64,000 nucleotides of DNA from Malacoraja senta (taxonomy: Eukaryota). The position numbers and the translations under genes were made by a program. Below, one piece after another: positions 3,525-43,943 of the stretch (position 1 is the stretch's first letter; each line of letters starts with the position of its first letter). The notes below the pieces were generated by a model. That model made no database searches, had not been told where the DNA came from, and worked only from the letters and a program-made list of their open reading frames with translations. The stretch lies in the NCBI GenBank assembly GCA_038087875.1, contig CM075993.1:4032001-4096000 (forward strand), in the 5' to 3' direction.

Positions 3525-3582
3525 CTGGCCTTCGTGGTGAACGACTTCATTGTTTTCAACATTGTCCTCAGTCATGGCCACT
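3525..3582 (-). CDS. CCDC33: Probable downstream CCDC33 exon (58 bp, phase 2->0)
   Basis: tcttgttctgcag|A GTG GCC ATG... VAMTEDNVENNEVVHHEGQ |gtgagt. The only open frame is the one in phase with 4636-4823. Confidence 0.6.
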
Positions 3583-3681
3583 CTGCAGAACAAGAAAGAG
3601 ATTCAAACCTCGGAACTGCTTTGAGTGAGGTCTGTAGCAACCCCTTCCTCCAATGGCAACATCACCAAGGACAGATGCAGC

Positions 3682-4231
3682 TAGGGTTGCCAACTTTCTC
3701 ACATCCCAAATAAGGGACAAAAGGTCAAAATACGGGACAAATTCCCGACGGCAATTCGTTGACCGACTCGGCCGTGGCTGGCTGGGTGAATGATGAGTTG
3801 GCCCGGGTGCTGGACTGCACACAAAGCCCAGCCGGCGGGCCAGCTGAGGAATTTTGGACCGGGCCGCGCGAGGTCGCGCGCAGAGTCCGGCAATCCATCA
3901 AACTCATGAACCGATGATCGGCCGTGAGAAGGAGGGGTGGTGGTGGTGTCGGCGGTAAGCGAAGGTCCGAAGGTCGGACGGATGGCCGGGCTGCCGACCG
4001 ATCGACGGGGCCACGGGCGAGGCGCTGCTGCTGCTGCTGCTGCTGCACTCCATGGGCTGCACTACGTCGGGACGGGTGAGGCGGGGGCCGGACGCGGAGC
4101 TCCGACCCGACAGTCCCCTCGACCCGAGTAGCCACAGTCAAATAAGGGACAACGGCGGTCCCGTACGTTCCAAACCGATTTAGCCCAATATACGGGTTGT
4201 CCCGGCTAATACGGGACAGTTGGCAACCCGA
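3682..4231. mobile_element. Non-autonomous hAT element (GC-rich interior)
   Basis: TIRs TAGGGTTGCCAAC / GTTGGCAACCCGA; 8-bp TSD GATGCAGC / GATGAAGC; subterminal (A/T)ACGGGAC repeats. Confidence 0.85.
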
Positions 4232-4635: not shown

Positions 4636-4823
4636 CTTTTCGGAGAGAACAAAACAGGGTCTTGGGTCTGAAGTGGTTCAGGAGCTCTGACTGGTGACTG
4701 CTGGCCCCTCTTTTCCATCTTCGGATTTCCCTTTGGACTGGTGGCACGGAAGAGGTAGTCATACTCTGGGAGTACTTGTGCCAGCGCATCATAAGGCGGA
4801 AGATTCACTCTCTCCTTCAGAAG
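4636..4823 (-). CDS. CCDC33: Probable downstream CCDC33 exon (188 bp, phase 0->2)
   Basis: tttcttttccag| LLKERVNLPPYDALAQVLPEYDYLFRATSPKG...DPVLFSPK(R) |gtggga. Strong acceptor, open frame, splices in phase to 3525-3582. Gene assignment rests on a recalled non-mammalian LP..DA.A..LPEY..LF motif and on synteny. Confidence 0.62.
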
Positions 4824-6065: not shown

Positions 6066-6470
<405 letters not shown>

Positions 6471-15035: not shown

Positions 15036-15235
15036 NNNNNNNNNNNNNNNNNNNNNNNNNNNNNNNNNNNNNNNNNNNNNNNNNNNNNNNNNNNNNNNNN
15101 NNNNNNNNNNNNNNNNNNNNNNNNNNNNNNNNNNNNNNNNNNNNNNNNNNNNNNNNNNNNNNNNNNNNNNNNNNNNNNNNNNNNNNNNNNNNNNNNNNNN
15201 NNNNNNNNNNNNNNNNNNNNNNNNNNNNNNNNNNN
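15036..15235. other. Assembly gap (200 N, placeholder size)
   Basis: Run of exactly 200 N. Confidence 0.99.
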
Positions 15236-16035
15236 GTCTTCAGAGTGTGGGAGGAAACCGATTTGTTTAGATCAACTGTGGCGCCGTTGCCTCACAGCTT
15301 CAGAGACTCAGTTTTAATCCTGACCTCGGGTGCTGTCCGTGTGGAGTTTGCATGTTCTCCCTGTGAGCACTGGGGTTTCCTCTGGTTTTGAATTGAAAAA
15401 GCTTGTGATTGAATTGAATGATTGAAAGATAGGGCATGGAAATTGGCCCACCGAGTCCTCCGGTTCATCCCAAAGGCGCGCAGGTTTGTAGGATAACTGG
15501 CCTCCGTAAATTGCCCCTAGTGTGTAGGGAGTGGATGCGAAAGGGGAATTTCCTTAGCCAGAGGGTGGAGCTTTAGTGATTCATTGCCACAGGCGGTCGT
15601 GGAGGCCGTCTTTGGGTATTTTTAAAATGGAGATTCGTGGTCAGTGCGGGTGTCAAAGGTTATGGAGAAAAGACAAGAGAATGGGGTTTAAAGGGAAAGA
15701 TAGATCAGCCATAATTGAATTGCAGAATAGACTCGATGGGCTGAATGGCCTAATTCTGCTCCTATGTCTTATGAACATGAAAGTGGAACTGAGAGTGAAT
15801 GGGTGATGAATGGTCAACGTGGACTTGGTGGGCTGAAGGGCCTGTTCCCTTGCTGTATCTTTCAATCAATCAATTCAATCAAAAAACTTTTTCAATTCAG
15901 AACAGCGATGTTCATTGCTATTTTTCATTGTGGCTTGGAATGACTAACCGATGATCACCTTTAACCTCAAGACAAAATGAAGGCTTTTGGCACACTTCCC
16001 AATCCATTTGCATGTTTGGCTCTGGAAGGTTTGTT

Positions 16036-16410
16036 GGGTTCACGGGAGGTTGGTCTTGGAGGGGAGGATGCTCCTCAAACTGCGGAGCATCCTGGACAAT
16101 ACAGCTCACACCCCCTCCGTGACACACTGGTCAACCTGAGGAGCACCTTCAGCAACAGACTGGTTCCACCAAGATGCAGGACAGAACGCCACAGGAGATC
16201 CTTCTTCCCTGTGGCTATCAAACTGTACAACTCCTCCCCCTTCTGTCGTGAGACTGACTACCACCCCACCCCCCCCACCCCCACTAATCTTTGCACATCC
16301 CCAATCCTTTCCACTGATCACTTTAATTTCATGTATCTTGTGTTTTTATGACTGTCGGCAGATCAATTTCCCTCCTGGGATAAATAACGTTCTATCGTAT
16401 TGTATCGTAG
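16036..16410 (+). mobile_element. Rex1/Babar-type LINE 3' end
   Basis: SHPLRDTL...STFSNRLVPPRCRTERHRRSFFPVAIKLYN followed by a 3'UTR and short tandem tail. Confidence 0.8.
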
Positions 16411-16776
16411 AGGATAAATGGTGTAAATCATCCATTTACCCTGATTCCTGCCATCCTCACTGACTTTCCAACTGAGCAATGCTTCAGTCCCCAAGGATGC
16501 CCATTGGTAGCAGAGTGACTGTATCCAGGTCCCCTGCAGCTCAGGCAGAATTGGGACAACACCCAAATTTGGAGACGTTCCCTCTTAACAGCTTCAAACC
16601 GAGCCACAGATGAAACATTCCCTCTTCAATGGGAAATTCAGAACAAACAGGGATTTCACTCAAAGGACCTTCTGAGTCTCTGAACTCTTCTATATGTTAA
16701 TTTTTCAATTATTTATTCCACATTTTGCCTTTTTATCACACAATTTTATCTACAAAGACACCAGAAGGTTATGGGT

Positions 16777-17464
<688 letters not shown>

Positions 17465-17677
17465 GATGTACATATACACAAACAGAAGGCTGTGGAGGCA
17501 AAGTCAATGGATATTTTTAAAGCAGAGTTAGATTCTTGATTAGTCCGGGTGTCAGGGGTTATGGGGAGTAGGCAGGTGAATGGTGTTAAGAGGGAAAGAT
17601 AGATCAGCCATGATTGAATGGCGGAATAGACTTGATGGGCCAAATGGCCTAATTCTGCTCCAATCACTTAAGAACAT

Positions 17678-18086
17678 ATCATCAGCATCGGCGGTCTCTC
17701 AAAACGAGTATGACTGTCCTCTCCTTATTTGGAGGACGCCTGTGCGTGACTTTGTTTAACGTGGGGAGACTGGTGCACAGACAGCCACCACACGGTTCTT
17801 GACAGATCTGGGTCAGGATCCAGTGGCATGGAGTCCAAGACGACCGGAGACCCTTTTCTGCTGCAGCCTTCATCCGCCTTCCCAGCCGTTGTGACGCTCC
17901 ACTAAAGTCAGCCATCATCCTCCGCCTGTTCCACCTGTTGAGGTCTTGGTTGGATTGCTCTTTGTCAGGGACCTCCCCCTCGACCTTCCCGCCATGGGTG
18001 GCCCTACCAGGAGCATCGCTCCAGACGGCATCGCTCTCAGGATCTCGGGACCACACAAGCTTCTCCACCACGACAAGGTGACAATC
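17678..18086 (-). mobile_element. Non-autonomous RTE-derived (bipartite) retroelement
   Basis: Minus strand begins GTCACCTTGTCGTGGTGGAGAAGCTTGTGTGG...CCTGGTAGGGCCACCCATGGCG...CTGACAAAG, resembling RTE (Rex3/BovB-type) 5'UTRs. Only ~400 bp, no RT sequence, short (TGA)n tail. Confidence 0.6.
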
Positions 18087-19218
18087 CACACACACACAAA
18101 CCACGAACGATGAGATCACATACCACTTACAGCATCCAAAACATCTTTATTTTTATTTAATCTTCTAAATCCAATTACTATTTAAAAGCCATTCTGGACT
18201 CATAAGTTTAAACAAGGATACTGCATTTCCCTGTACAACCTGCTCTTGGGTGTTTCATGATGCCACTGTTAAATTTATACCATCTGCTTTCCATTTTCTG
18301 AACAGCAGGAACAATTTTTGAGGAGTCATCAAAACTCTAGGGCCTAAAATCTTATCAAGTGGCACACTGGTTTTGTGATGAAATTTCTTAAGAATTGATT
18401 GGGTACTTGTGGGCACCTACACATAATTACAGTGCAGGCTAAAGGTGCAGGGCTCACACAGCCTTAAACAACTGCTCACCGTTATTTAAAGGACTCAATT
18501 GTTCCCGAATCACCTCTAGGTGCAAATTGGAGGAACAGCATCTCATATTTTTGCTTGGGCAGCTTCCAACCCAGTGGTATGAATATTGATTTCCCAAACT
18601 TCAAGTAACCCCTGCATTCCCTCTCTCTCCGTCCCTCCCCCACCCAAGTCGCACCAGCTTCTCGTTCTCACCTAGCAAACAGCTAATAATGGCTTGTTAC
18701 CTTTTTTGCATATCTTTCATTCATTTGTTCTATATCTCTCTATATCGCCGTCTATATTTGTCTGTAGAATTCTCTGCCTCAGAGGGCGGTGGAGGCAGGT
18801 TCTCTGGATACTTTCAAGAGAGAGCTAGATAGTGCTCTTAAAGATAGCGGAGTCAGGGGATATGGGGAGAAGGCAGGAACGGGGTACTGATTGGGGATGA
18901 TCAGCCATGATCACATTGAATGGCCGTGCTGGCTCAAAGGGCCGAATGGCCTACTCCTGCACCTATTGTCTATTGTCTATTGTCTATTATATATCTCATT
19001 TCCCTTTTCGCTGACTGTCAGTCTGAAGAAGGGTCTGTATGGACAAGGTTTCCGCCCACATCCCAAAAACCGTGCAGGTTTGTAGGTGAATTGGCTTCTG
19101 TAAATTGTGCCCAGTGTCGAGGATAGTGTATGAGTGATTGTGGTCGGTGTGGACTGGGTGGGCCGAAGGGCCTGTTTCCGTGCTGAATGACTCTGATGAT
19201 GACTCTATCTCTCTGCAG

Positions 19219-19328
19219 TGGTGATCCTGAGCATTGCAGACAGCAGAAGCAAGGAGTTGTTGGCAAGCTACTGCCTCCCTGTCTCCTACCTGCAGATGTT
19301 TCACCATTACCACCTCGAGTTGATACAG
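19219..19328 (+). CDS. CCDC33: CCDC33 internal exon (110 bp, phase 1->0), C2-domain region
   Basis: ctctctgcag| VILSIADSRSKELLASYCLPVSYLQMFHHYHLELIQ |gtgagt. Resembles human [37 protein letters not shown]. Confidence 0.88.
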
Positions 19329-19841
19329 GTGAGTGAGGAGGAGCCACGGGGAGACCCGGCCAGGTACTAACCCCCAGACAGAATTAGTCAACACAGAAGA
19401 CCTGATCCTTCCCTAGCTCGCGACTCGTGGATCTTGCATGGTTTAGTGTAGAGATACTGGATCGAACCCGGCTCCCTGGCGTTGTAAGGCAGCAGCTCTA
19501 CCGCTGAGCCACTGTGCCAGCCCCGCTGAGTTACTCCAGCACTTTTGTAAACCAGCACCTGCAGTTCCTTTCATCCATATCTACAAAGTCTGCCTTTCCC
19601 CTTAAATGCATTCATGTGGATAATCCTCACGGTGATCCCAATGAAGACACGATGGTTTAAATTTCCTTTGAGACTCATCCATCCTGTATTGTCTCTGTGG
19701 GGCCGCCCTGTTATAGCCGGTGGAGGGATCAATTCCCCTGTTTATAGGCATGTGAACGATGTTGACCTTTCTGCCTGTGTTTGTCTCTTTCCTCCCTCTC
19801 CTCCCCACCCCCCCCCCATCCCCACCTCCCCCGACTCCCAG

Positions 19842-19943
19842 CCACACTCCAGCATCCCATCTGGCGTTCGATTATATGTCACCGTCGTTCGAAAGGGCAG
19901 CGTCATTCCGCGACAGGAAGGCTTCGCTTTCACCGGCTTCGAG
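19842..19943 (+). CDS. CCDC33: CCDC33 internal exon (102 bp, phase 0->0)
   Basis: ctcccag| PHSSIPSGVRLYVTVVRKGSVIPRQEGFAFTGFE |gtaggc. Resembles human QLYATVVRKSSFIPRY...ALE. Confidence 0.88.
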
Positions 19944-21803: not shown

Positions 21804-22342
21804 TAGGATTGCCAACTTTCTCACTCCCAAATAAGTGACAAAAGGTCAAAATACGGGACTAATTCCTGACGACAATTGGTTGACCGACCCGGCCGTGGCT
21901 GGGTGGGTGAATGATGAGTTGGCCCCGGGTGCTGGACTGCACACAAAGCCCAGCCGGCGGGCCAGCTGAGGAGTTTTGGCCCGGGCCGCGCGCAAAGTCC
22001 GGAACCCCATCCAACTCATGAACCGATGATTGGCCGTGAGAAGGAGGGGTGGTGGTGGTGTCGGCGGTAAGCGAAGGTCCGAAGGTCGGACGGATGGCCG
22101 GGCTGCCGACCGACCGACGGGGCCACGGGCGAGGCGCTGCTGCTGCTGCTGCTGCTGCACTGCATGGGCTGCACTACGTCGGGACGGGTGAGGCGGGGCC
22201 GGAGGCGGCGCTCCGACCCGACAGTCCCCTCGACCCGAATAGTAGCGGTCAAATACGGGACAAGGGCGGTCCCGTACGGGACAAACCAATTTAGCCCAAT
22301 ATACGGGATGTCCCGGCTAATACGGGACAGTTGGCGACCCTA
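21804..22342. mobile_element. Non-autonomous hAT element, second copy of the 3682-4231 family
   Basis: Same TIRs and interior; 8-bp TSD GCCTCCAC / GCCTCTAC. Confidence 0.87.
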
Positions 22343-27217: not shown

Positions 27218-27462
27218 AGGTACACAAAAATGCTGGAGAAACTCAGCGGGTGCAGCTGCATCTATGGAGCGAAGGAAATAGGCAACGTTTCGGCCCGAAA
27301 CCCTTCCGGGTTTCGTCCCGAAACGTTGCCTATTTCCTTCAGGGTTTCGGCCCGAAACGTTGCCTATTTCCTTCGCTCCATAGATGCTGCTGCACCCGCT
27401 GAGTTTGTCCAGCATTTTTGTCTACCTTCGATTTTCCAGCATCTGCAGTTCCTTCTTAAACA
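27218..27462. mobile_element. Penelope pseudo-LTR hairpin insertion
   Basis: Same arms and 38-bp spacer as 777-972, sitting inside an older Penelope 3' region. Confidence 0.8.
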
Positions 27463-27861
27463 ATGTAGAATGGTAGATTGTTACATACATAGATACATAG
27501 AAAATAGGTGCAGGAGTAGGCCATTCGGCCCTTCGAGCCTGCACCGCCATTCAATACGATCATGGCTGATCATCCAACTCAGTATCCCGTACCTGCCTTC
27601 TCTCCATACCCCCTGATCCCTTTAGCCACAAGGGCCACATCTAATTCCCTCTTAAATATAGCCAATGAACTGGCCTCAACTACCCTCTGTGGCAGAGAGT
27701 TCCAGAGATTCACCACTCTCTGTGTGAAAAAGTTTTTCCTCATCTCGGTCTTAAAGGATTTCCCCCTTATCCTTAAGCTGTGACCCCTTGTCCTGGACTT
27801 CCCCAACATTGGGAACAATCTTCCTGCATCTAGCCTGTCCAACCCCATAAGAATTTTGTAC

Positions 27862-28227
27862 GTTAGCTGAGGGGAAGGTGACAACGAGGCATACAATCAG
27901 TAATATCTAATCAGGAGGACAGTGGAACTAATCGGAGAACTAGGGTGGGGGTGGGACGGAGAGAGAGGAAAGCAAGGGCTGCTTAAAGGTAGTGGAATTA
28001 TTATTCACACGGCTGGGGTGTAAGCTGCCCAGGCAAAATGTGAGGTGATATGCCGCCAATTCGAATTGGGCCTCCCTTTGACAGCGTTGGGGGCCCACGA
28101 CAGATAGGTCAGTATGAGACTGAGAGGGGGAGTTAAAGTGTTTAGCAACCGGGGGATCACGTAGGCTTAGGTGGACTAAGCGGAGGTGTTTAGTGAACCC
28201 TGCGCTTGGTACTGCCAATATACAGGA
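27862..28227 (-). mobile_element. Degenerate Penelope-like GIY-YIG fragment
   Basis: KHLRLVHLSLRDPPVAKHFNSPSQSHTDLSV motif. Confidence 0.8.
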
Positions 28228-29030
28228 GAATATATAGGAGGCTTGGATAGAGTGGATGTGGAGAGGATGTTTCCACTAGTGGGAGAGTCTAGGACCTAGA
28301 GGTCACAGCCTCAGAATTAAAGGATGTTTATTTAGGAAGGAGATGAGGAGGAATATCTTTAGTCAGGGGGTGGTGAATCTGTGGAATTCTTTGCCACAGA
28401 AGGCAAGTCATCGGATATTTTTAAGGCAGAGATAGATAGATTCTTGATTAGTACGGGTGTCAGGGGTAATGGGGAGAAGGCAGGAGAATGGGGTTAGGAG
28501 GGAGAGATAGATCAGCCATGATTGGATGGCGGAGTAGACTTGATGGGCTGAATGGCCTAATTCTGCTCCTATCGCTTATGACATATAACTAGAGGGGAAG
28601 TGTGGGAAAGGGATAGAGAGGGGGAAGGAGAAAGGGTTGGACATGGAGAGTGGGATAAAGGACACTGTTTGGAGTGAGAGGAGGAGATGAAGGAGGGAGG
28701 GAGAGGGAAGGAAGCCTTCACTCGCCATCTTCTAGCTGTGTTTAGTTTGGTTTAGGGATACAGCGCGGAAACAGGCCATTCGGCCCACGGGGGTCCAGGC
28801 CGACCAATCATCCCCGCCCATTTACACTATTCTGCACCCACTCGGGACAATTTTTACATTTACCAAACCTCAACGTCTTTGGAGTGTGGGAGGAAAGCGA
28901 AGATCTCGGAGAAAACCCACGCAGATCACTGGGGGAGAACGTACAAACTCCGTACAGACAGCACCCGTAGTCGGGATCGAACCCGGGGTCTCCGGCGCTG
29001 CATTCGCTGTAAGGCAGCAGCTCTACCGCT

Positions 29031-29628
29031 TCTGTCTTCTGTCGTGTGTCTTTTACACCTGCAGCTCCGTTGAGGCGAGCCAGGCCAACGTGTCATCGTC
29101 CAGGTCAATCAGACCTCATTCACCATTCGTTGGCCGGTGTTTGGGGCAACTGGTGACCATGTGCTCCACTGTCTGTGTTGGGTCCCCACACTCGCATGAG
29201 GCACTCGCTGTCCACGAGGCCCCACCTCTTCGTCGCCACTCCATAGCATCCGATGCCTAACCTCAAGCGGTTGAGGGTTGTCCACTGCTTTCGGGGCAGG
29301 TCCTGGCCAAGGACGTCCATGGAGTCATCGATGTACTGGTGTAGCCTAGATGGTTCCACTGGCCTCTCCATCTCGTCTTGACGCAGGCGGCCTTAGAAGC
29401 GTCAGCCGGTGTTGTGCAGAGCAGCTCTTGGGCTTGCGTGGCAAAGGGGTGCCGTGACTTGAGGCTCACTCGTCGTGGTATCTCTGTGACGATCTGATGG
29501 AGGAGGTGGGATTCACTGGTCTGTGCCTTTCGAGAGAGGGGACCAGCGTGGCTGCTTCTCGTCTGATGTTGGCTGGGGCGATACCAGCGAGGACGGGCAG
29601 TCGGTTTACGGGAGTGGCTCGTAGGCAT
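29031..29628 (-). mobile_element. Vingi/Ingi-like LINE 3' fragment inserted in a V-SINE
   Basis: CLRATPVNRLPVLAGIAPANIRREAA, LKSRHPF, GQDLPRKQWTTLNRLRLG...KRWGL and a C-terminal CxC..H..C remnant across frameshifts. TSD CTCTACCGCT at 29021-29030 and 29631-29640. Confidence 0.75.
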
Positions 29629-30363
29629 AACTCTACCGCTGCGCCACCGTGACCACCCTGGTCGTTCCGAGGACGAGCAGCTCCCTGCGGCCATGTTGGA
29701 CCTGTGCCCTCAGGATCGCCTCCAGTCACTGCAGGAGAGGTGATTAAAACAAACGGAAAGAAAAAGTCACGGGACACCCACAAACAAACCATTTATCAAA
29801 CGGACAACATGGTTAAGCCTTTTTTATTGGGAATGATTGCATCCCGAGTCAGCATTTATACTCCAGTGAAATACACCCGTTGCTCCAGAGGTCAACACCA
29901 CACAGTAATTATTTGGACAAGATTGATTTTCTGGTGCTTTAATCGTGCCTTTTCACTGTCGTTTCTCCGAAAGACTGACGATGCCTGATTTCTTTTCCGA
30001 AAAGATTTTATGCAGATTGTATTCATTAATCTGGGCTCCGCTCATTATTTACCAAATGTCATGAGATGAACGTGTTGGGCAGGGGAGCTGAGCCGCTCGA
30101 TAAATTGATTTGGCCGCACCACTGTTTATCCATCTGCTCGCTCCGGGAAATAGAGTCACAGTGTCAAGCAGCAGGGGAGCGGTCCCTTCAGCTCAATTCG
30201 TTCAGAGGTTTTAGTGTTTAGTGTAGAGATACAGCAGGGAAACAGGCAATTCGGCCCACCGAGTCCACACTGACCATTGGTCACCCTAGTTCACACTAGT
30301 TCTATGTTATCCCACTTTCTCATCTGGGTGGCACGGTGGTGCAGTGGTAGACTTGCTGCCTTA

Positions 30364-31014
30364 AGGGCCTGTCCCACTTGGCCGTCATTTACGCGACAGG
30401 CCGGTAGTGACGGTCCCGCGACGGTCGTGCGTCATCATGCGCCCGCACAGCCGTCTGGAGCGCGTGACGTCATTTGAAGATAGACACAAAATGCTGGAGT
30501 AACTCAGCGGGACCGGCAGCATCTGTGGAGAAAAGGAATGGATGATGTTTCGGGTCGAGACTCTTCTTCAGTCTGAAGAAGGGTCTCGACCCGAAACGTC
30601 ACCCATTGCTTCTCTCCAGAGATGCTGCTGGTCCCGCTGAGGTACTCCTGCATTTTGTGTCTATCTCCAATCGTCTTGGCCCCGCTCTGGGAGTAGGAGT
30701 GGGGGGCGGATCCGGATCCGCAACGGCCGTGAGCCCCAGGCCGAGCTCGGCGATCGCTTGCCTGCTTCTGCTGCTGTTGGAGGTGAGACGTCGCGCCGCG
30801 ACAGGGTGTCCCACTTTGGCCGTCAGTTACGCGACAGGCCGGTTTCGCGAAGATTTCGTGCAGAACGAAATCCTGGAGCGCTGCGCGATACTGCGCTCAA
30901 CTCCACATTCCTCCACGCCACTCCATGCACCCGTCCCGCGCTACCCACACGCTACCCACACGCTACCACATTGCGTAAATGCCGCGCAAATGACGGCCAA
31001 GTGGGGCAGGCCCT
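30364..31014. mobile_element. PIF/Harbinger non-autonomous element
   Basis: TIRs AGGGCCTGTCCCACTTGGCCGTCATTT / AAATGACGGCCAAGTGGGGCAGGCCCT; 3-bp TSD TTA; interrupts a V-SINE at GCTGCC-TTA-CAGCG. Confidence 0.88.
30573..30600 (+). ncRNA. Minimal hammerhead-ribozyme-like core in a Penelope pLTR palindrome
   Basis: CTGAAGA-A-GGGT(CTCG)ACCC-GAAA-CG-TC with a GUC triplet. Similar copies at 24146, 36577 and 52034 (+) and ~3089-3116 (-). Confidence 0.55.
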
Positions 31015-33316
31015 TTACAGCGCAGGAGACCCGGGTTCGATCCCGACTACAGGTGCTGTCTGTACAGAGTTTGTATGTTCTCCCTGTGACCTGCGTGGGT
31101 TTTCTCCGAGATCTTCGGTTTCCTCCCACACTCCAAAAACGTACAGGTTTGTAGGTTAATGAGCTTGGTATAAATGTAAAATTGTCCCTAGTGTGTGCAG
31201 AGTAGCTTTAATGTGCGGGGATCGCTGGTCGGAGTGGACTCGTCGGGCCAAAGGGCCTGTTTCTGCGCTGTATCTCTAAACTAAACTAAACTAAACTAAA
31301 CTAAACACTCCCTACACACTTCAGGCAATGCTAAGAAGCCAATGAACCTGTTCCCCACTCTCACACTTGTTCTATGTTATTCCACTTTCTCATCCACTCC
31401 CTACACTAAAGGCAATGTACACAAGCGACTTAACTTACAAACCCGCACGTCTTTGCAATGTGGGAGGAAACCGGAGCACCTGGAGGAAACCCACGTGGTC
31501 AAAGGGAGAACGCACAAACTCCGCACAGACTGCACACATGGTCAGCATCGAACCGGCGACTCTGGCGCTGTGAGGCTGCTTTCCTACTGGTCGGCATGGT
31601 GCTGAATGCCACAGAAGGCTGTGGAGGTCAAGTCAGTGGATATCTTTGAAGCAGAGATTGGCAGATTCTTGATTCGTACGGGTGTCAGAGGTTATGGGGA
31701 AAAGGCAGGGGAATGGGGTTAGGAGAGAGAGATAGATCAGCCGTGATTGAATGGCGGAGTAGACTTGACGGGCCGAATGGCCTAATTCTGCTCCTATCAA
31801 TTATGACCTTATGAATGCTGGCTATGCATGCCAACACACTCCTGGGGACTATGATAAAGACTCAAGCAAATTGACAAAACAAATTGACTTTGATGATGCT
31901 TCAGAGAGAAGCCGCACACATTCATCAGTGCAGCGTGTGTGATTTGTGCCCTGGGTGCAGTATAAGGATGACAAATGGAGCCACAGGGAAACACTGAGCA
32001 GATATCCCTGTCCTGGGGCTCGTTCTGGCTGAGTCAACTGACAGCTACTCATACACTAGTCTCCCCTCCGTCAGGCATCCCACTGGCCAGTGACAGAGCC
32101 TCCCCCTCTTTAAAGGACTGTTTCCCTCCCGCACTGCGTTTTAGTTTCAGTTTTCAGACACAGGGTGGAAACAGGCCCTTCGGCCCATCGAGTCCGTGCT
32201 GACCAGCGATAACCCGTACACTAGTTAATCCTACACACTAGGCGGTCACGGTGGCGCAGTTGTAGAGTCGCTGCCTTACAGCGAATGCAGCGCCGGAGAC
32301 CCGGGTTCGACCCCGACTACGGGTGCTGTCTGTACGGAGTTTGTACGTTCCCCCCGTAACCTGCGTGGGTTTTCTCCGAGATGTTCGGTTTCCTCCCACA
32401 CTCCAAAGACGTGCAGGTTTGTAGGTTAATTGGCTTGGTGTAAATGTAAATTGTCCCTAGTGGGTGTAGGATAGTGTTAATGTGCGGGGATCGCTGGTCG
32501 GCACGGACCCGGGGGGCCGAAGGGCCTGTTTCCGCGCTGTATCGCTATAAATAAACTAAACACTCGGGACAATTTACAAAAGGCAGTTAACCGACAAACC
32601 CGCATGTCTTTGGAGTGTGGGAGGAAACCGCAGCACCCAGAGAAACCCCACGCAGTCACAGGGGGCACGTGCAAACACCACACAGACAGCGCCCGCAGTC
32701 AGGATCGAACCCGGGTCTCGGGCACTGTGAGGCAGCAACTCTACCACTGCGCCTCCGTGCCGCCCTAAACTTAGTGACCAATCAGATGCTAATTGAATGA
32801 ACTAAATTCGAAAAATGGTAGAACCTTAAATTGAAACGTAATAATCTGGTATTTAAATTTTTCTTAGAGACACGGTGTGTAAACAGGCCCTTCGGCCCAC
32901 AGAGTCCACGCCAACCAACGATCACCCTTACACTAGTCCCATGTTATCCCAGTTTGCATCCCACACACTGGGGGCAATTAACAGAAGGCTATTAACCTAC
33001 AAACCTGCAGGTCGTTGGTATGTAGCAGTAAACTGGAGCAGGCATAAAAAGCCCGCTCGGTCACTGGGAGAACGTACAAGACCGCACTGATAGTCAGGAT
33101 CGAACACGGGTCTCTGGCGCTGTGAGGCAGCAACTCTCGCTGTGCCAGGCGGCCGTCACATTTCAACCCTTCTGTATAATAAACATAAGACATGTTGTGA
33201 CCAAAGGTTTCTGTCAAGTCAAGTCAAGAGAGTTCATTGTCATGTGTCCCAGATCGGACAATGAAATTCTTGCTTTGCTTCAAGCAGAACAGAATATAGT
33301 AGGCATAAATAAATAC

Positions 33317-34030
33317 AGGTACACAAAAATGCTGGAGAAACTCAGCAGGTGCAGCAGCATCTATGGAGCGAAGGAAATAGGCAACGTTTCGGGCCGAAAC
33401 CCTGAAGGAAATAGGCAACGTTTCGGGACGAAACCCGGAAGGGTTTCGGGCCGAAACGTTGCCTATTTCCTTCGCTCCATAGATGCTTCCTCACCCGCTG
33501 AGTTTCTCCAGCAGGTACACAAAAATGCTGGAGAAACTCAGCGGGTGCAGCAGCATCTATGGAGCGAAGGAAATATGCAATGTTTCGGGCCGAAACCCTT
33601 CTTCAGACTGATAGGGGGTGGGGAGAAGAAAGGAAAAAAGGAAAAAGGCGGAGGAGGAGCCTGAGAGCTGGGGGAGGGGAGGAGACAACCAGAGGGGCTG
33701 ATGAAGGGGGAGGGGACAGCAAGGGCTAGCAGAATTGGGAGAATTCAGTGTTCAAGCCCCCAGGATGTAGACTGCCCAAGCGGAATATGAGGTGCATTTC
33801 CTCCAATTTACGGTGTTGCTCGCTGTGGCCATGGAGGAGACCCAGGACAGAGAGGTCAGATACGGAATGGGAGGGGAGTTGAAGTGCTGAACCACCGGGA
33901 GGTCAGGTTGGTTAATGCGGACCGACCGGAGGTGTTCGGCGAAACGATCGCCAAGCCTCCGCTTGGTCTCACCGATGTAGATCAGCTGGCATCTAGAGCA
34001 GCGGATGCAATAGATGAGGTTGGAGGAGAT
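33317..34030 (-). mobile_element. Penelope-like element 3' end: GIY-YIG endonuclease remnant plus pseudo-LTRs (tandem and inverted)
   Basis: Minus strand 34030-33726 reads ISSNLIYCIRCSRCQLIYIGETKRRLGDRFAEHLRSV...HFNSP / SH...LEEMHLIFRLGSL...* with one frameshift, followed by a 3'UTR and pLTR hairpin. Flanked by a probable 14-bp TSD (ATAAATAAATACAG 33305-33318 / ATAAATAAAAACAG 34035-34048) inside a Rex1-type LINE tail. Confidence 0.88.
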
Positions 34031-35341
34031 GATGATAAATAAAAACAGAACAGATCAGTGTGACCATATACTATTGAATATATATATACACACACATAAA
34101 TAAGCAGATAAAGTGCAATGGGCTATTAATGTTCAGAGTTTTGTTTGAGTTGAGTTTAATAGCCTGATGGCTGTGGGGAAGCAGCTATTCCTGAACCTGG
34201 GATGTTGCAGATTTCAGGCTCCTGTACCTTCTACCTGAAGGTAGCGGGGAGATGAGTGTGTGGCCAGGATGGTGTGGGTCCTTGATGATGCTGCCAGCCT
34301 TTTTGAGGCAGCGACTGCGATAGATCCCCTCGATGGTGGGGAGGTCAGAGCCGATGATGGACTCGGCAGTGTTTACAACTTTTTGTTGCTTACAATCATC
34401 GCTTGCGGTGATTGAGTGGCCAGTTTAGGACTGAATATTATCATATCTCAGGCGGGCTGCGGGCGATGCAGGAAATAAGATAGCCTTTAATTGAAGGCAT
34501 TGCTGTGACATCTGCGTTTAATAATACCTTTGGCAGAGGAAGATGAAAATGAACAGGAATTATTCAACATTTAATTTTAAGCCACATTATTGTAACCAGC
34601 GCACAATGATGGGGCGGTGAAACGTCCAAGCCCTCGTCCAGAGGATAACTTGCCTGGATAGGGTGGATGTGGAGAGGATGTTTCCACTCGCGGGAGAGTC
34701 TAGGACCAGAGGCCGTAGCCTCAGAATAGAAGTTCAAAGGAGATGAGGAGGAATTTCTTCAGTCGGCACGGTGGCGCAGCGGTAGAGTTGTTGCCTTACA
34801 GCGCTTGCAGCGCCTGAGACGCGGCTTCGATCCTGACTACTGCTGCTGTCTGTGCGGAGTTTGCACGTTCACCCTGTGACCGCGTGGGTTTTCTCTGAGA
34901 TCTTTGGTTTCCTCCCACACCAGTAGGTATGCATGTATGTATGTAGGTAAATTGGCTTGGTACAAGTGTAAATTGTCCCTAGTGTGTGTAGGGCAGTGTT
35001 AATGTGCGGGGATCGCTGGTCGGCGCGGACTCGGTGGGTTGAAGGGCCTGTTTCCACGCTGAATCTCTAAACTAAACTAAACTAATGTACTCATGTGCAG
35101 TATGATTTGCCTGGATAGCACGCAAAAGGAAATGTTTTCACTGTAAAACATTTGCTGGTGTTTAGTTTGAGAAGCGTTTCATTGAAGCTCTTGTGTTGGA
35201 AGGAACTGCAGATGCTGGTTTAAATCGAAGATGCTGGAGCAACTCAGCGGGACAGGCAGCATCTCTGGAGCAAAGGGCTGGGTGACGTTTCGGGGCAAGA
35301 CCATCTATCTTCACTGAAGCTCTTGTTCCTCTCTCCCCTAG

Positions 35342-35476
<135 letters not shown>

Positions 35477-36788
35477 TGACCATGTCTCCCGGGCACAACA
35501 GGGACAAGACAGGAGATTGTACAGAGGTATTTCCAGCCAAGGACCTCAGGCAGTTCACATCCAGATAACGGTGACCTCTCTCTGTATCACCGGACCATAT
35601 CTCCCGTCTCCCCTAACTCTCAGCCTGAAGAAGCGTTCCGACCCCAAACGTCACCGATGTTGGGGGAGTCCAGAACCAGGGGCCACAGTTTAAGAATGAG
35701 GGGTAAGCCATTTAGAACAGGGAGGAAGAAAAACGTTTTCACACATAGGGTTGTGAATCTGTGGAATTCCCTGCCTCAGAAGGCAAGGGAGGCCGTCTCC
35801 GGATGCTTTCAAGAGAGAGTTAGATAGGGCTCTTAAAGATAGCGGAGTCAGGGGATATGGGGAGAAGGCAGGAACGGGGTACTGATTGGGGATGATCAGC
35901 CATGATCACATTGAATGGCGGTGCTGGCTCGAAGGGCCGAATGGCCTACTCCCATTGTCTAATCCTTTTCTCCTGAGATGCTGCATGACCCGCTGAGTTA
36001 CTGTAGCATTTTGTGACTATCTAATGGTGGCCAGGTTGTCTTATCACGCGCTGGGCTTTGTCCTTCCCTCCTCTCCCAGCCTTCTCCCCCACCTCTCCCC
36101 TCCTCACCACTGTCGGCCTGAAGAAGGGTCCCGAACTGAAACATCACCTGTCCACTTTCTCCAGAGATGCTGGCTGACAAAGAAGAGTGCGTCAGTCGAT
36201 CGTCTATCTCCTGTGACGAATGAAGGAGGGTCTCGACCCGAAACGTCACCCATTCCTTCTCTCCAGAGATGCTGCCTGTCCCTCTGAGTTACTCCACAAT
36301 TTTGTCCCTACATCCGATTTAAACCAGCATCTGCAGTTCTTTCCCACACATTTTGTCCGCTCCACGCAGCAAAATCTCCTCAAGGCGAGTCTACTTTGAG
36401 GAAGTCCTCCTCCTCTCTCCGTCGAGCAACATCCTCTCTCGCTGTTCCCCCTCTTGTGATTCCTCCTTCCCTCCGAACCTACGACCGTATTTTAACCCAG
36501 ACCCGCTGCCACAACCATGTGTGCTTCCTCGTTGCTTGCCTCCATCTCCATCTCCATCTCCACCTCCAAAATCAGTCTGAGGAAGGGTCTCGACCCGAAA
36601 CGTCACCCATTCCTTCTCTCCAGAGATGCTGCCCGTCCCGCTGAGTTACTCCAGCATTTTGTGCCTATCTTCTGTGGTGAATGTTGAATCAGACTCGAGG
36701 GTCTGAGGGGCCACATGCTGTGGTTTTACTCTGCCTCTACTCTTGAGGTGGTGACCAACACATCTCACCGCTCCACTCTCACCGGCAG

Positions 36789-36922
36789 TGATGAACACCG
36801 TCAGCTGGTTTGGCCGCAGTCCCGTGGGCTTCTCCGGAGTGCCCCTGAGCCAGGACGTCTACCACAAGCTGATGACGGAGAATGGTGGCCGTGGACTGAA
36901 GGTGGTCAGCCTACCTGTTCAG
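36789..36922 (+). CDS. CCDC33: CCDC33 internal exon (134 bp, phase 1->0)
   Basis: accggcag| (V)MNTVSWFGRSPVGFSGVPLSQDVYHKLMTENGGRGLKVVSLPVQ |gtgagc. Confidence 0.88.
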
Positions 36923-37877
36923 GTGAGCTCCCTCCCATCTTAAACCTGTCCTGCTCGCTTCCCAGACTCTCAGGTGTCTAAACTGTGCCATGTTAGACCC
37001 CAGAGCTACCGTCTATCTTCAGCATAAACCAGCATCTACGGTTCCTTCCCACACATTTCGTCTGCTCCAATGTGAAATCTCAAGGTGTGCCTACCGTGAA
37101 GAAGTTCCTCTCCTCTCTCCGACAAGATTTCTGCAACATCCTCTCTCGCTGCTCCCCCTCTGTGACCCCTCCTGCTCTCCGACTCTACGAACAATGGGCC
37201 TGAAGACGGGTCTCAACCTGAAACCTCCACTCTCACCCATTCCTTCTCCCCAGAGATGCTACCTGTCCCGCTGAGTTTCTCCAGCATTTGGTGTCTTTCT
37301 AAGAACAATGGCCCGTTTCCCTTATCATCGTAACTTTTTTTTGTATAGCTTTCATTCACTGTTCTTTATCTCTCCACATCATCGTCTATATCTTTCGTTT
37401 CCGTTCCCCTGACTAGTCTGAAGAAGGGCCTTGTCCTGAAACGTCACCCACCCCTCTCCAGAGACGCTGCCTGTCCCGCTGAGTTACTCCAGCATTTCGT
37501 GTCTATCTTCGGTTCAAACCAGCATCTACGGTTCCTCCCTGCACATTAGGGATAATCAGCATGGCTTCGAATGAATGAATGAATAAATGTATTAATACTT
37601 TTTTTGACCAAGTATTCACATACAAGGAATTTGCCTTGGTGCTCCGCCTGCAAGTGGCAACATGACATACAGTGACAGTTAGAATGACACATTAAACATT
37701 AAACATTAGTAATAAAACATTATTAATTAAACATGTCGGATGTCATCCACCACTGAGTAACTCCAGCTTTTTGCGTCTACCTTCCTTTTCGAAGATTTGC
37801 TGATGTATCTACTCTGTTTTGTTGGAATATCCTCTCTCACAGTCCAGGTAATCGTTGTCTATTTACTATCTCCGCAG

Positions 37878-37949
37878 GGGACCAGTCTGAGAACAACATC
37901 TGATACCACACCAACTGTGGGGCTTGTCCTCAGGCTCATCGGCTCCGAG
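37878..37949 (+). CDS. CCDC33: CCDC33 internal exon (72 bp, phase 0->0)
   Basis: tctccgcag| GTSLRTTSDTTPTVGLVLRLIGSE |gtaaga. Resembles human [24 protein letters not shown]. Confidence 0.9.
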
Positions 37950-38290
37950 GTAAGATCGGACGATGCTTGGTTGACAGAAGATTAGGTTTGGTTCCATCTC
38001 CAATTTCATTCACTCCAACATCGCTCATTCCTTCAGATGCCTGGACTCTAAGCCTTGCGACCCCATCCTGTCTTTAAGAATGTCTTCTTACAAGAGTTCC
38101 TTACAACCCACCTCTGGCAAAGGCGTAAATGTATATGGCTGAGAAAAACATAGAAAGTAGGTGCAGGAGTAGGCCATTTGACCCTTTGAGCCCAGCACCG
38201 CCATTCAATATGATTATCCAGAATCAATACCCTGTTCCTGCTTTTCCCCCCATATCCTTTGATTCCATTAGCCCTAAGAGCTAAATCTAA

Positions 38291-38503
38291 AGGGCCTGTC
38301 CCACTTGGACGTCATTTGCGCGTCACGCAGATGGCGCTCGAAGATTTTGTACATCCCAAATTCCTGGACCGCGCGTCACTGCCTACATCACCTTGCACCA
38401 TGCGCGCATTACGTGCGTGTCACGAGGCGCGCGTCGTGCGTCGTGACGCGTAAATGATGTCGCCTAAATGACGCGCAAATGATTCCCAAGTGGGACAGGC
38501 CCT
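38291..38503. mobile_element. PIF/Harbinger MITE inserted in a CR1 tail
   Basis: AGGGCCTGTCCCACTTGG...CCAAGTGGGACAGGCCCT; TSD TAA. Confidence 0.88.
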
Positions 38504-41500
38504 TAACTCTCTCTGGAGTACATCCAGTGAATCGGCCTCCACTACATTCTGTGGCACAGAATTCCACAGATTCACAACTCTCTGGCTGAAAAAGTTTTTC
38601 CTCATCTCAGTCCTAAATGGCCTACCCTTTATTCTCAAACTGTGACCCCTGCTTCTGGACTCCCCCAACACCGGAAGCATTTTCCCTGCAATTCTCATCC
38701 CCGTTCCAAATGTACGTCCTTTCATTCTGGAGCTGTGCCCTCTGGCCCGAGACTCTCTCACTCCTGGGAAACATCCTCTCCACATCCACTCTATCCAGGC
38801 CTTGGACTTGGTTGTTTTCTCTGGAATGCCAGAGATTTAAGGGGAGATCTGGTGGAGCTATATAAAATGATGCGAGGCATAGATAGGGTAGACAGTCAGA
38901 ACCTTTTTTCCCAAGATGGAAATATCTAATACTAGCGTGTATATCATTAAGGTGAGTGGGATTTCCACACAGAGGCTGGCGAGAGCCTGAAATGTGCTTC
39001 CAGGGATGGTGGTGGAGGCCAGATATGATAGTGGTGTTCAAGAGGCCTCTGGATGCCTCTGGAAAGGCAAATGGACATGCAGGGAATGGAGGGATATGGA
39101 TCACGAACCGGCAGAAGAGGAGCGTTTAGGAAAGAACCGCAGACGCTGGTTTAAACTGAAGGTAGACTCAAAATGCTGGAGTAACTCAGCGGGACAGGCA
39201 GCATCTCTGGAGAGAAGGAATGAAGATGAGGAGTGTTTAAGAAGGAACTGCAGATGCTGGAAAATCGAAGGTACACAAAAATGCTGGAGAAACTCGGCGG
39301 GTGAGGCAGCATCTATGGAGCGAAGGAAATAGGCGACGTTTCGGGTCGAAACCCTTCTTCAGAAGATGAAGGAGTCTATTTTGACATTATGTTCAGCATA
39401 GATGTGGGCCGAAGGGCCTGTTCCTATGCTGTACTGTTCTGTCTTCGATGGGCTATGATTATAGAACAGGCGGAGGCCACGAGGGTTGAGTCTCTGGTGG
39501 GGTTTGACAGCAAGGATGAGAATTTTAAAGCCAAGCTCTCGGAATAACCTAAGGGATGCAGTGGTCAATAATTGAATATTTTGGACACCTTGTGCCGGGA
39601 ATGATGCTGCAGGAAGGACCGATTGGAGCGACTATCCAAAATCCCCTCCCCATCTTTCTTGAGAGCAGTCTGTACGCAGGGTGGCTGCGGAAACGCTTTC
39701 GCATGAAGAACGCGATGTGTCACCGAGATCGCAGAGTCACTTCATTTTCCAATAAGGAACGCTATTCTTTGGCTGGAAACTCCCTTTCCATTTCAGGTTG
39801 CCCTTGTGGCAAGGTAAAAGGCTTGATATGAGCAGACTGAAGCATAATGATATGGAGATTTTATTGATATTCTGTGGGTGCCTAGAGGGTTGGTTGCTGA
39901 GGAGTCCACATTGTGGTACTTACGAGTAAATGCCCATGGGCCGAGTGAGAGACTGTGTGTATGTGTGTGATGTATTATTCACAAGGGCCCAACTTAGCCT
40001 TGAATTAATTCCTTTTATTACAGTTGCTTGCCAAACTAAATTAACAGCTTCAGCCAAGCACTAAACAAGCGCGGTATTTATTTTTGGATGATTGTGGTGA
40101 AGCTGTTTTGTCGGACAGCCATTTGTAACTTTTACGATCAGCTTCACGCGTGTAATTTGATGTTTCCAATGGGCAGTGTTGTTTTCAAATTCCTTATTAA
40201 ACCCTGAGCTGATCAACACGGCTGTCCCCTAGCAGGTCCTGCATAACATTAGGGTAATGTGCAAGAAGGAACTGCGGTTTCAACGGAAGATAGACACAAA
40301 AAGCTGGAGTAACTCAGCGGGTCGGGCAGCATCTCTGGAGAGAAGGAATGGGTGACGTTTCTGGTTCTTCAGTTCTAACCTGGCAGTTCCCAGCACCGCT
40401 CCTCAGGCACAATGTCCATGCAATAACATGTAAAGGACACCCAATTAGATAATAAAATACCCGTATCACACAGTGGAGGCATTGGAGAGGGTGCAGAAGA
40501 AGTTGACCAGAATATTGACTTCAAATCTAACTTCAAGTCACCCTTGCTTTCCCTCTCTCTCCATCCCTCCCCCTTCCTAGTCCTCCCACCAGTCTGACTG
40601 TTCCCCTGATTAAATGTTATCTTTGTAAGTGGAGGAAGGAACTGCAGATGCTGGTTTACACCGAAGATAGACACAAAATGCTGGAGTAACTCAGCGGGAC
40701 AGGCAGCATCTCTGGACAAAAGGAATAGGTGACATTTCGGGTCGAGACCCTTCTTCAGACTCAGACTGAGACTGTTTGCTTGCTGTCACCTCCTAACTAA
40801 CAATGATCTATTTCCACATTTTCCTTGAGCTCCGTTCCCTTTGATGGCCCGTGTTCACACCTTGCCCTTCCATATCTCTGTGTCTCCCTCTCCCCTGACT
40901 CTCGGTCCGAAGAAGGGTCTCGACCCGAAATGTGAACCATTCCTTCTATCCAGAGATGCTGCCTGTCCCGCTGAGTTACTCCAGCATTTTGTGTCTATCT
41001 ACAGTCTCTTCCCAGCTGTTGTCAGGCAACGGAATCATCCTACCACAACTAGAGAACAGTGCTGAACTACTATCTACCTCTTTGGTGACCCTTGGACTAT
41101 CCTTGATTGGACTTTGCTGGCTTTACCTTGCACTAAACGTTATTCCCTTATCGTGTATCTATACACTGTAAATGAATCGATTGTAACCGTGTATTGTCTT
41201 TCTGTTGACTGGTTAGCCCGCAACAAAGCTTTTCACTGTACCTCGGTACACGTGACAATAAACTAACATGAACTGGTTGCCTCCGTCCGGGAGCTCTGGT
41301 TCCCCAGCAACATCTCAAAGACGTGCGGATTTGTCGGTTAATCGGCCTCTGTAAATTGTTCCTAGTGTGTAGGGAGTGGGTGCGATAGTGAGATTACATA
41401 ATGTTAATTGGGGATCGATGGTCGGCGTGGGCTCGGTGGGCTGAAGGGCCTGTTTCCATGCTGTATCTCTAAGCTAAGCCACTCCCTGTTCTATCCCAGT

Positions 41501-43743
41501 TTGGGGCATCGGGGAGGGAAGGAGAGGGGGGGGGTCGGGCAGGGGGGGGTGCCTTCTTTGTCCCGAGCTGTTGGGCATCTCGTTAGAAGCCGGTTCCGAG
41601 AACGTTGCTTGAATAACAATCAAGGTCAAAGCTCAGGGAATGAGCGCGGCGGAACTTCAATAATAACACCCCAGGGTCATCTGTTTGGAGGCAGCGTTTC
41701 AAAGCGGTTCCCAGGGGGAAGGATCTGAGGTGCTAATGGTTAGGGATCCGTCCACATTTATCACTTTGAGCATTGATATGTGCGAGGGGAGTAGATGGGC
41801 AGAGTGCAGAGGGGGGGGGGGGGTGTTGTTATGCGGAGCCCTTGCTCCTGAGAAAGTCATCTCTCCCAGTGTCAGTGCAATCTCCTCCCAGAATTTCGTA
41901 AAGCTTGCAAAAGAAACAATTAGGCAGCAAGCTTACCTTTTCCCCTCAGACGCATAACAAATAAAGGTGGTCGCATGGTTGGTCTAAGCTAACGGTTTAC
42001 CCACAAGGTTAATTTGCAGGTTGGATCAGGAGATAAGGAAAGAAAATGCAATGTTCATATTCATTTTGAGAGGACTGGAGTATAAAAGCTTGGGATGTAA
42101 TGCTGAGGCTTTACAGGGCACAGGTTAGACCACATTTACAGTACTGTAAGTAGTTTTGGGCCCCATATCTGAGGAGGGATGTGTTGGTTTTGCAGACTTT
42201 CCAGAGGAGGTTTACGAGAATGATCCCAGGGATGGTTGGGTTTATTTACTGTGGGTTAATGTTTGACGGCTCTGGGCCTGTACTCGCTGGAGTTACGAGA
42301 ATGAGGAGAGATCTTCTAAACACTTACTGTATAACAAAAGTGTGGGAAAGTTGCTTCCTCACAGCGCCAGAGACTCTGGTTCGATCCTGACTACGGGTGC
42401 TTGTCTGTACGGAGTTTGTACGTTCTCCCCGTGACTGCGTAGGGTTTCCCCGGGATCTCCGGTTTCCTCCCACACTCCAAAGACGTACAGGTTTGTAGGT
42501 TAATTGGCTTTGATATATATGTAAATTGTCCCTAGTGGGTGTAGGGTAGTGTTAATGTGCGGGGATCGCTGGTCGGCGCGGACTCGGTGGGCCGAAGGGC
42601 CTGTTTCCACGCTGTTTCTCTAAACTAAACTAAACTAATTCCAAGCCCATGTTTGTTGTAGTCACGATGAACAGCGGAGCTGGTGCTTGCAGCATTTATC
42701 ATCACTACAAGCATTGCATTAGTGGGTACCGTAAGGTTACAGGGTTTGTGCAGTTGGTTAAACGTCTAATGAGTTGGATACATGGAGACATAGGGAAAAT
42801 TAATGTCTTTGTTGAACAGAATGTGTCAGCCATTCTCACGCGCACATTCCCACAGGAGCCCTCCTGGACAAGAGCTAATTGAATAAAAGTGTGCCGGGGA
42901 GGTTGGCGGCATGTGCAAGACAAAGACGGCAGAGAGACGGTGACAGGCAGAGGCGTTTGCAGTACCATGGACAGCAGCTGCAGTATCCGCCTGTCTAATC
43001 ACAGGCCGACGATAAAACTGTTGCATTTTACATGATCTGAGCTTCTGGGCGCAGTGGGCCGGCTCGGTTGCAATTGTACCCGGCCCAGCCACGATATGTG
43101 GTGAAGACAGACGCAAAACACTGGAGCAACTCAGCGGGACAGGCGGCAGCTCTGGAGAGACGGAATGGCCGACGGTTTCGGGTCGAGACCCTTCGTCAGA
43201 CCAGAGTCAGGAGAAAGAGAAAGAGAAAGGGTCACAAGTTTAAGGATAAGGGGGAAGTCTTTTAGGACCGAGATGAGAAAAACATTTTTCACACAGAGAG
43301 TGGTGAATCTCTGCAACTCTCTGCCACAGAAGGTAGTTAAGGCCAGTTCATTGGCTATATTTAAGAGGGAGTTAGATGTGGCCCTTGTGGCTAAAGTGAT
43401 CAGGGGGTATGGAGAGAAGGCAGGTACAGGATACTGAGTTGGATGATCAGCCATGATCATATTGAATGGCGGTGCAGGCTCGAAGGGCCGAATGGCCTAC
43501 TCCTGCACCTATTTTCTATGTCTATGTTTCTAAAGGGAAATGAGAGATATGGACGGTGACTTTGAGCGATATAGAACAAATGAATGAAAGATATGAAAAA
43601 GAATATGAATGTGAAAATGAATGAAAGATGATAAAGAAAACAGGCCATTGTTAGCTGTGGGCTAGGTGAGTTACTCCAGCATCTTGTGTCTATCTTCGGT
43701 TTAAACCAGCATCTGCAGTTCCTTCCTACACAATTCGTGAAGC

Positions 43744-43943
43744 NNNNNNNNNNNNNNNNNNNNNNNNNNNNNNNNNNNNNNNNNNNNNNNNNNNNNNNNN
43801 NNNNNNNNNNNNNNNNNNNNNNNNNNNNNNNNNNNNNNNNNNNNNNNNNNNNNNNNNNNNNNNNNNNNNNNNNNNNNNNNNNNNNNNNNNNNNNNNNNNN
43901 NNNNNNNNNNNNNNNNNNNNNNNNNNNNNNNNNNNNNNNNNNN
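43744..43943. other. Assembly gap (200 N, placeholder size); truncates ISLR2 CDS
   Basis: Run of exactly 200 N. Coding sequence (LRRCT 'PFSCDC') begins immediately after it. Confidence 0.99.

What the first reader, a model, noticed from the sequence alone, without database searches (positions are those of the whole stretch)
3525..43943. CCDC33 exons switch strand across a gap: middle contig probably inverted
Seven phase-consistent CCDC33 exons run left-to-right on + inside the contig bounded by the two N-gaps (19219-37949). Two exons that look like later CCDC33 exons lie on - in the left contig (4823-4636, 3582-3525). As assembled, one transcript cannot join them. Flipping 15236-43743 gives a single minus-strand gene in the correct order, with its missing 5' end facing ISLR2 head-to-head. 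Gaps on both sides favour a scaffolding orientation error over a real gene-breaking inversion.
Basis: partly seen in the sequence, partly recalled or inferred. Interest (0 to 1): 0.7.

Follow-up and report, generated by a model that had tools for sequence, protein, structure and literature searches.

The report
Backwards contig splits skate CCDC33 gene
Exons of one skate gene, CCDC33, point in opposite directions on either side of a sequence gap, most likely because a 28-kb piece was placed backwards during genome assembly, so this is likely an assembly error and not biology.

Summary
Observation confirmed. Seven intact CCDC33 exons lie on + in the 28.5-kb contig between two 200-N gaps. Two later exons and a short-isoform first exon lie on - in the left contig. 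Relatives carry both sets in one protein: 22 of 64 fetched proteins match both, all 22 in that order. A thorny-skate model starts with sequence matching 42667-42729 (+), 1 kb from the middle contig's right end, and runs on into the minus-strand exons. That places the join where a flip predicts. Both gaps probably hide real sequence: a ~76-residue CCDC33 segment is absent from the window, and a run of the same organism extends ISLR2 662 nt past the second gap. Best reading: scaffold misorientation (~0.92). Correction: the right contig holds ISLR2 (+) and STRA6's last five exons (-). Pig gene order suggests it is also flipped, and that CCDC33's 5' neighbour is STRA6, not ISLR2. No read or contig bridges either gap, so a true recent inversion (~0.05) is not excluded. 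Useful for curation only.

The parts
3525..3582 (-). CCDC33 exon L2 (about aa 790-808 of sawfish protein)
   Evidence: spliced to L1 in 3 of 4 laid runs (joint 3581/4635)
4636..4823 (-). CCDC33 exon L1 (aa 727-788)
   Evidence: 58/62 identical to thorny skate P0007
5317..5349 (-). coding part of the alternative first exon of the CCDC33 short isoform (11 codons; untranslated part runs to at least 5545 in a relative)
   Evidence: matches residues 1-11 of P0001/P0003/P0004; joint 5317/4823 with GT..AG ends on the minus strand in 3 of 4 runs
15036..15235 (.). gap 1, 200 N; in the corrected layout the missing ~76-codon CCDC33 segment would lie at this end of L
   Evidence: segment absent on both strands
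15236..43743 (.). middle contig M (28,508 bp), likely placed in the wrong orientation
19219..19328 (+). CCDC33 exon M1 (aa 402-437; overlaps the end of the C2 domain, which Pfam places at 331-421 in P0005)
19842..19943 (+). CCDC33 exon M2 (aa 438-471)
22415..22506 (+). CCDC33 exon M3 (aa 472-501)
24811..24931 (+). CCDC33 exon M4 (aa 503-542)
35342..35471 (+). CCDC33 exon M5 (aa 543-585)
36789..36922 (+). CCDC33 exon M6 (aa 587-630)
37878..37949 (+). CCDC33 exon M7 (aa 631-654)
42667..42729 (+). probably intronic stretch whose thorny-skate homologue forms the predicted first 21 residues of model P0007; orientation marker tying M's right end to L1
   Evidence: 17/21 identical, E 8e-9, no second copy in the window; score 93 against a maximum of 48 in 100 shuffles
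43744..43943 (.). gap 2, 200 N; at least 662 nt of real DNA are missing on its ISLR2 side
43944..45389 (+). ISLR2 coding sequence from about residue 184 to the stop; one C missing near 44189
   Evidence: run X2 has the extra C
53821..54050 (-). STRA6 last exon
   Evidence: PF14752 profile positions 575-604; PDB 5sy1 STRA6, E 2.6e-6
55391..55528 (-). STRA6 exon
   Evidence: PF14752 516-559
56905..57068 (-). STRA6 exon
   Evidence: PF14752 462-514; 5sy1 E 3.8e-16
58114..58215 (-). STRA6 exon (GAG acceptor)
   Evidence: PF14752 427-459, E 1.9e-5
60027..60144 (-). STRA6 exon
   Evidence: PF14752 389-425

Best explanation
The window holds one ordinary CCDC33 gene of a skate whose exons switch strand at an assembly gap, most likely because the scaffolder placed the short middle contig (15236-43743) in the right slot but backwards. 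Shown: exon identities, strands, phases and gap positions; relatives join both exon sets in one protein; sequence is missing beside gap 2. Inferred: the true layout is L | reverse-complemented M | reverse-complemented R. That gives CCDC33 wholly on -, with a long isoform (missing 5' exons, M1-M7, a missing ~76-codon segment, L1, L2, further exons left of the window) and a short isoform starting at 5349. STRA6 would face CCDC33 5' to 5', with ISLR2 beyond it (about 0.8 for this second flip). Inferred mechanism: contigs broke in GC- and repeat-rich DNA, and proximity-ligation data order a 28-kb contig but barely orient it.
For: (1) 22 of 64 fetched CCDC33 proteins match both an M exon and L1/L2, and in 22 of 22 the M part comes first; 15 of the 16 cartilaginous-fish proteins with M segments are among them. 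(2) Little-skate model P0002 joins M3-M7, 76 aa, L1 and L2. (3) Thorny-skate model P0007 begins with a match to 42667-42729 (+), 1014 bp from gap 2, then the missing segment, L1 and L2. (4) The M exons show no decay: 7 of 7 open, 14 of 14 splice sites canonical, 85% identical to sawfish. (5) The window's only two gaps fall one at each required breakpoint and have the same round length; a YaHS-scaffolded skink assembly marks every gap with 200 Ns (PMC12134992, passages). (6) Gap 2 is longer than 200: one 1550-nt contig of run X2 covers 43944-44830 with its letters 663-1550, and its other 662 nt lie nowhere on 42500-45560; all 120 of 120 ISLR2 proteins match from the contig start, at median residue 184. 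(7) No long near-identical repeat or overlap at the contig ends. (8) Misoriented short contigs are a described Hi-C error (PMC7672694; bioRxiv 10.1101/261149; passages).
Against: No read or contig bridges either gap, so orientation in this individual is inferred from other species. Gap 1 was never laid with reads. Relatives' proteins are annotation models from other assemblies, and P0007's first 21 residues are probably a mispredicted exon. All skate models fetched are partial (328-490 aa), against about 930-1370 aa for most other cartilaginous-fish hits (whose length filter excluded proteins under 603 aa). The spliced contigs show only the short isoform. 42 of 64 proteins did not match both parts at my threshold (8 lack the M part, 34 have no L1/L2 match). 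That the assembly used Hi-C is inferred from gap length. The flip of R rests on a pig table whose order I take to be positional, a chicken list that omits CCDC33, and recalled human strands.
Confidence: 0.92

Rival explanations
1. A real, recent inversion of about 28 kb or more inside CCDC33 in this species or individual, with the assembly breaking at both breakpoints. The long isoform would be destroyed and the short isoform from the internal start at 5349 would survive.
For: Real inversion breakpoints often sit in repeats where assemblies break (general knowledge). The short isoform is self-contained in L and is spliced in relatives. No full-length skate CCDC33 model was seen.
Against: M exons are intact and conserved. 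Two other skates keep M and L co-oriented. No inverted repeat pair at M's ends. Gap 2 interrupts an ISLR2 exon that is continuous in a run of the same organism, so that gap at least is a loss of sequence. Restoring the expected gene order needs a second inversion ending at a gap too.
Confidence: 0.05
2. M and L belong to two CCDC33 copies (inverted duplication, or a second haplotype placed beside the first), each only partly visible.
For: Little skate has two annotated models, 'CCDC33' and 'CCDC33-like'.
Against: No exon occurs twice in the window; M covers aa 401-654 and L aa 726-808 without overlap. The two little-skate models are consecutive, non-overlapping parts of one protein. No long near-identical duplication between L and M. 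Non-repeat parts of M are at low, even depth in X2 (about 18-20; contig depth is no copy number).
Confidence: 0.015
3. The minus-strand exons belong to a different gene.
For: This region of CCDC33 is poorly conserved outside cartilaginous fish (34 of 64 proteins have M matches but no L1/L2 match).
Against: The L1 search returned 5 proteins: 4 named CCDC33, and one unnamed whose cluster members are named CCDC33. L1 follows M7 in 22 proteins.
Confidence: 0.005

Closest known systems
Misoriented short contigs in Hi-C scaffolds (HiC-Hiker, PMC7672694; SALSA2, bioRxiv 10.1101/261149; passages read)
   Same: A contig under 50 kb, in the right order but the wrong direction, bounded by fixed-length gaps and breaking a gene model.
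   Different: Here two neighbouring contigs appear flipped; the contact data and the scaffolder's identity were not available.
CCDC33 of cartilaginous fish (sawfish XP_051898693.1; little skate XP_055518762.1; thorny skate XP_032870709.1; Rhinoraja longicauda XP_078286177.1)
   Same: Same exon content and order; 85% identity to sawfish over M exons, 89-94% to skates over L1+L2; same short-isoform first exon.
   Different: As assembled the exons are on two strands; aa 1-400 and 655-725 are absent from the window.
ISLR2-ISLR-STRA6-CCDC33-CYP11A1-SEMA7A block (human 15q24; pig table in PMC10741191, chicken table in PMC12649552, passages read)
   Same: ISLR2, STRA6 and CCDC33 are neighbours; ISLR2 and STRA6 converge tail to tail (human strands recalled, not from a call).
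   Different: No ISLR between ISLR2 and STRA6 here; the assembled order and strands match the block only after flipping M and R.

Membership tests
Scaffold misorientation artefact | Strand switch coincides with contig boundaries | tested here: met
   The window's only gaps lie between 5349 and 19219 and just after 42729
Scaffold misorientation artefact | Gaps are placeholders of unknown true size | tested here: met
   Both 200 N; at least 662 nt missing at gap 2; ~76 codons absent from the window
Scaffold misorientation artefact | Close relatives are collinear in the flipped orientation | tested here: met
   P0002 and P0007, via protein models only
Scaffold misorientation artefact | Raw reads or Hi-C of the same individual contradict the assembled orientation | tested here: inconclusive
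True gene-breaking inversion | Reads span the breakpoints in the assembled orientation | tested here: inconclusive
   No bridging record listed at gap 2; contigs break in repeats at 43100-43743
True gene-breaking inversion | Decay of the orphaned exons (expected if old) | tested here: not met
   7 of 7 open, canonical sites, 213/251 identical to sawfish
True gene-breaking inversion | Inverted repeats at both ends (if by ectopic recombination) | tested here: not met
   Only dispersed repeat matches within 1 kb of the ends; repeats could lie inside the gaps
CCDC33 | Best hits are CCDC33, in exon order | tested here: met
CCDC33 | N-terminal region and C-terminal coiled coil | not testable with these tools
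   Outside the window or in gaps; no whole genome held
STRA6 | RBP_receptor (PF14752) match in order, likeness to solved STRA6 | tested here: met
   5 of 5 exons match in order, 4 of 5 above the curated cut-off alone; 5sy1
STRA6 | STRA6 rather than the paralogue STRA6-like | not tested
   No tree built; position beside ISLR2 favours STRA6
ISLR2 | LRR-CT, Ig domain and long tail; best hits named ISLR2 | tested here: met
   (LRR-CT weak, E 0.028; I-set E 1e-5)

The most novel reading that the evidence does not exclude
The orientation is real: this skate carries a recent intragenic inversion that cuts the C2-domain half of CCDC33 from its coiled-coil half, leaving the internally started short isoform as the only whole product, a natural knockout of the long isoform.
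Probability: 0.05. Interest if true: 0.45.

Novelty: not a real feature. Interest (0 to 1): 0.08.

Why it matters
As an artefact it matters for curation only. Left as is, annotation would split CCDC33, truncate and frameshift ISLR2, and report false inversions in synteny work. It gives curators a specific fix: flip M, test flipping R, fill both gaps, polish near 44189. It also shows that mispredicted exons in relatives' models can serve as orientation markers. If the inversion were real, it would be a natural test of what the long CCDC33 isoform does.

Tried and rejected
No whole genome is held, so the missing exons and R's far end could not be sought. Search for sawfish aa 655-727 and skate P0002 aa 190-266 / P0007 aa 42-118 on both strands: no credible hit (best E 0.011-0.048). 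CCDC33 aa 1-395 of 8 long proteins: no hit to 5' exons; one shorter protein hit M1/M2 only. Contig-end overlaps: none. Run search: no RNA holder listed on record; X9, X21 and X22 nonetheless gave spliced contigs, which showed only the short isoform; X24 gave no CCDC33 cover. These blanks are no evidence on long-isoform expression. One search was crowded by repeats and its loose-end table was cut; X1 has no cover over 43942-44868, which proves nothing. One search used an M4 start one base off, corrected. Paper searches for gene strands found none. PMC8684056, PMC2907565 and PMC2954843 (passages) give no strands, and PMC9542162 had no hit in the held part. Earlier-findings look-ups by place, words and sequence found nothing on this locus. 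Rejected: different gene, paralogue, trans-splicing (no need once the gaps are seen).

Full report
What was checked. The window has two N runs of exactly 200 bases, 15036-15235 and 43744-43943, giving contigs L, M (28,508 bp) and R. The minus-strand exon 4823-4636 found 5 relatives: four named CCDC33 (little skate, Rhinoraja longicauda twice, sawfish) and one unnamed protein whose cluster members are named CCDC33. The organism is therefore inferred to be a skate: L1+L2 are 89-94% identical to skates and 73% to sawfish. No whole genome is held.

Sawfish CCDC33 (1097 aa) hits seven + strand exons in M (aa 401-654) and two - strand exons in L (aa 726 to about 808). All 9 of 9 are open, have AG/GT borders and chain in phase. 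It is the start of a short isoform. Contigs from 3 of 4 laid runs (X9, X21, X22; organisms other than the best holder) splice 5317 to 4823 and 4635 to 3581.

One gene. Of 64 CCDC33 proteins fetched, 22 match both an M exon and L1/L2 at my score threshold, and in all 22 the M part comes first. Of the other 42, 8 are short skate-type proteins without the M part and 34 have no L1/L2 match, nearly all outside cartilaginous fish. Among cartilaginous fish, 15 of 16 proteins with M segments carry both. The spacer between M7 and L1 is 63-96 aa in 20 of 22, 0 in one horn-shark isoform and 169 in one sawshark model. In skates it is 76 aa (P0002). That spacer is found on neither strand of the window, nor are aa 1-400.

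Which ends join. The thorny-skate model P0007 begins with 21 residues that match window 42667-42729 on + (17/21, E 8e-9; score 93 against at most 48 in 100 shuffles; no second copy in the window). The stretch lies 4.7 kb after M7 and 1 kb before gap 2, and is probably intron mispredicted as an exon. The model continues into the missing spacer, L1 and L2. A gene model is built on one strand in order (general knowledge), so in thorny skate the DNA matching M's right end lies upstream of, and co-oriented with, L1. That is the join that flipping M produces. It is evidence from another species' assembly, not from this individual's reads.

The gaps are placeholders. R begins inside the ISLR2 coding sequence: 120 of 120 ISLR2 proteins match from the contig start, at median residue 184, so about 550 coding bases are missing. 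In run X2 (same organism label as the best holder, another sample) one 1550-nt contig covers 43944-44830 with its letters 663-1550. Its first 662 letters lie nowhere on 42500-45560. The same contig has a C put in behind 44189, which removes the frameshift seen in the window; a consensus error near a contig end is the likely cause, though a difference between individuals is possible. A YaHS-scaffolded skink assembly marks all its gaps with 200 Ns (PMC12134992, passages), so Hi-C scaffolding is a reasonable inference. Two papers describe misoriented short contigs as a typical Hi-C error, because contacts span the whole contig (PMC7672694 and bioRxiv 10.1101/261149, passages). High GC and repeats are reported to have fragmented the Hox C cluster in elasmobranch assemblies (PMC10620051, passages).

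R also holds the last five STRA6 exons on - (60144 to 53821), matching PF14752 positions 389-604 in order and solved STRA6. ISLR2 and STRA6 thus converge within one contig, and STRA6's 5' end points right, out of the window. A pig table lists SEMA7A, CYP11A1, CCDC33, STRA6, ISLR, ISLR2, PML (PMC10741191, passage). A chicken table lists SEMA7A, CYP11A1, STRA6, ISLR, ISLR2, without CCDC33 (PMC12649552, passage). I take these lists as positional; human strands (ISLR2 +, STRA6 -, CCDC33 +) are recalled and come from no call. Flipping M alone gives CCDC33-ISLR2-STRA6. Flipping M and R each in place gives CCDC33(-), STRA6(+), ISLR2(-), the expected block. I put the second flip at about 0.8.

Against my reading. 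The long isoform was not seen in the spliced contigs, and no RNA holder is on record. Every skate model fetched is partial, although P0002 and P0007 overlap and together span M3 to the C-terminus on one strand. A recent true inversion remains possible (about 0.05). The intact, conserved M exons (213/251 to sawfish), the lack of inverted repeats at M's ends and the need for a second gap-bounded inversion argue against it.

Verdict. The strand switch is real in the file and most likely not in the animal (0.92). It is a known class of assembly error at an ordinary locus. Seven paper searches listed nothing on this locus in skates; I read search listings and the passages named above, no whole texts and no supplements. 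Interest 0.08.

Noticed in passing
window 45389-53821: No ISLR paralogue in the 8.4 kb of unbroken sequence between ISLR2 and STRA6 (no other hit of 120 ISLR2 proteins at E<1e-4), whereas pig and chicken lists have ISLR there. It may lie elsewhere or be absent in skates.
   Followed up: partly
window 44189-44193: One-base frameshift in ISLR2, about 245 bp from the contig start; run X2 has the extra C, so likely a consensus error.
   Followed up: yes
window 5317-5614 (-): Internal first exon of a short CCDC33 isoform (384 aa in skates), spliced in relatives' contigs.
   Followed up: yes
window 58215: A STRA6 exon uses a GAG acceptor, which is rare; the phase fits. Could be real or a base error.
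   Followed up: no
proteins P0002, P0006, P0007, P0008: All skate RefSeq CCDC33 models seen are partial, broken at different places in each species, suggesting the locus is hard to assemble or annotate in skates.
   Followed up: partly
protein P0020: A horn-shark isoform joins M7 directly to L1, so the segment missing from the window can be skipped in frame.
   Followed up: no
window 3681-4232 and 21803-22343: Two 550-bp copies (91.5% identical) of a repeat with a short GCA run, both on + as assembled; related copies appear in relatives' contigs. Dispersed element, not identified.
   Followed up: no
window 6087-6465, 16791-17460, 45823-46537, 57406-57612: Long CA, C-rich and AT tandem arrays; none lies at a contig end.
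   Followed up: no
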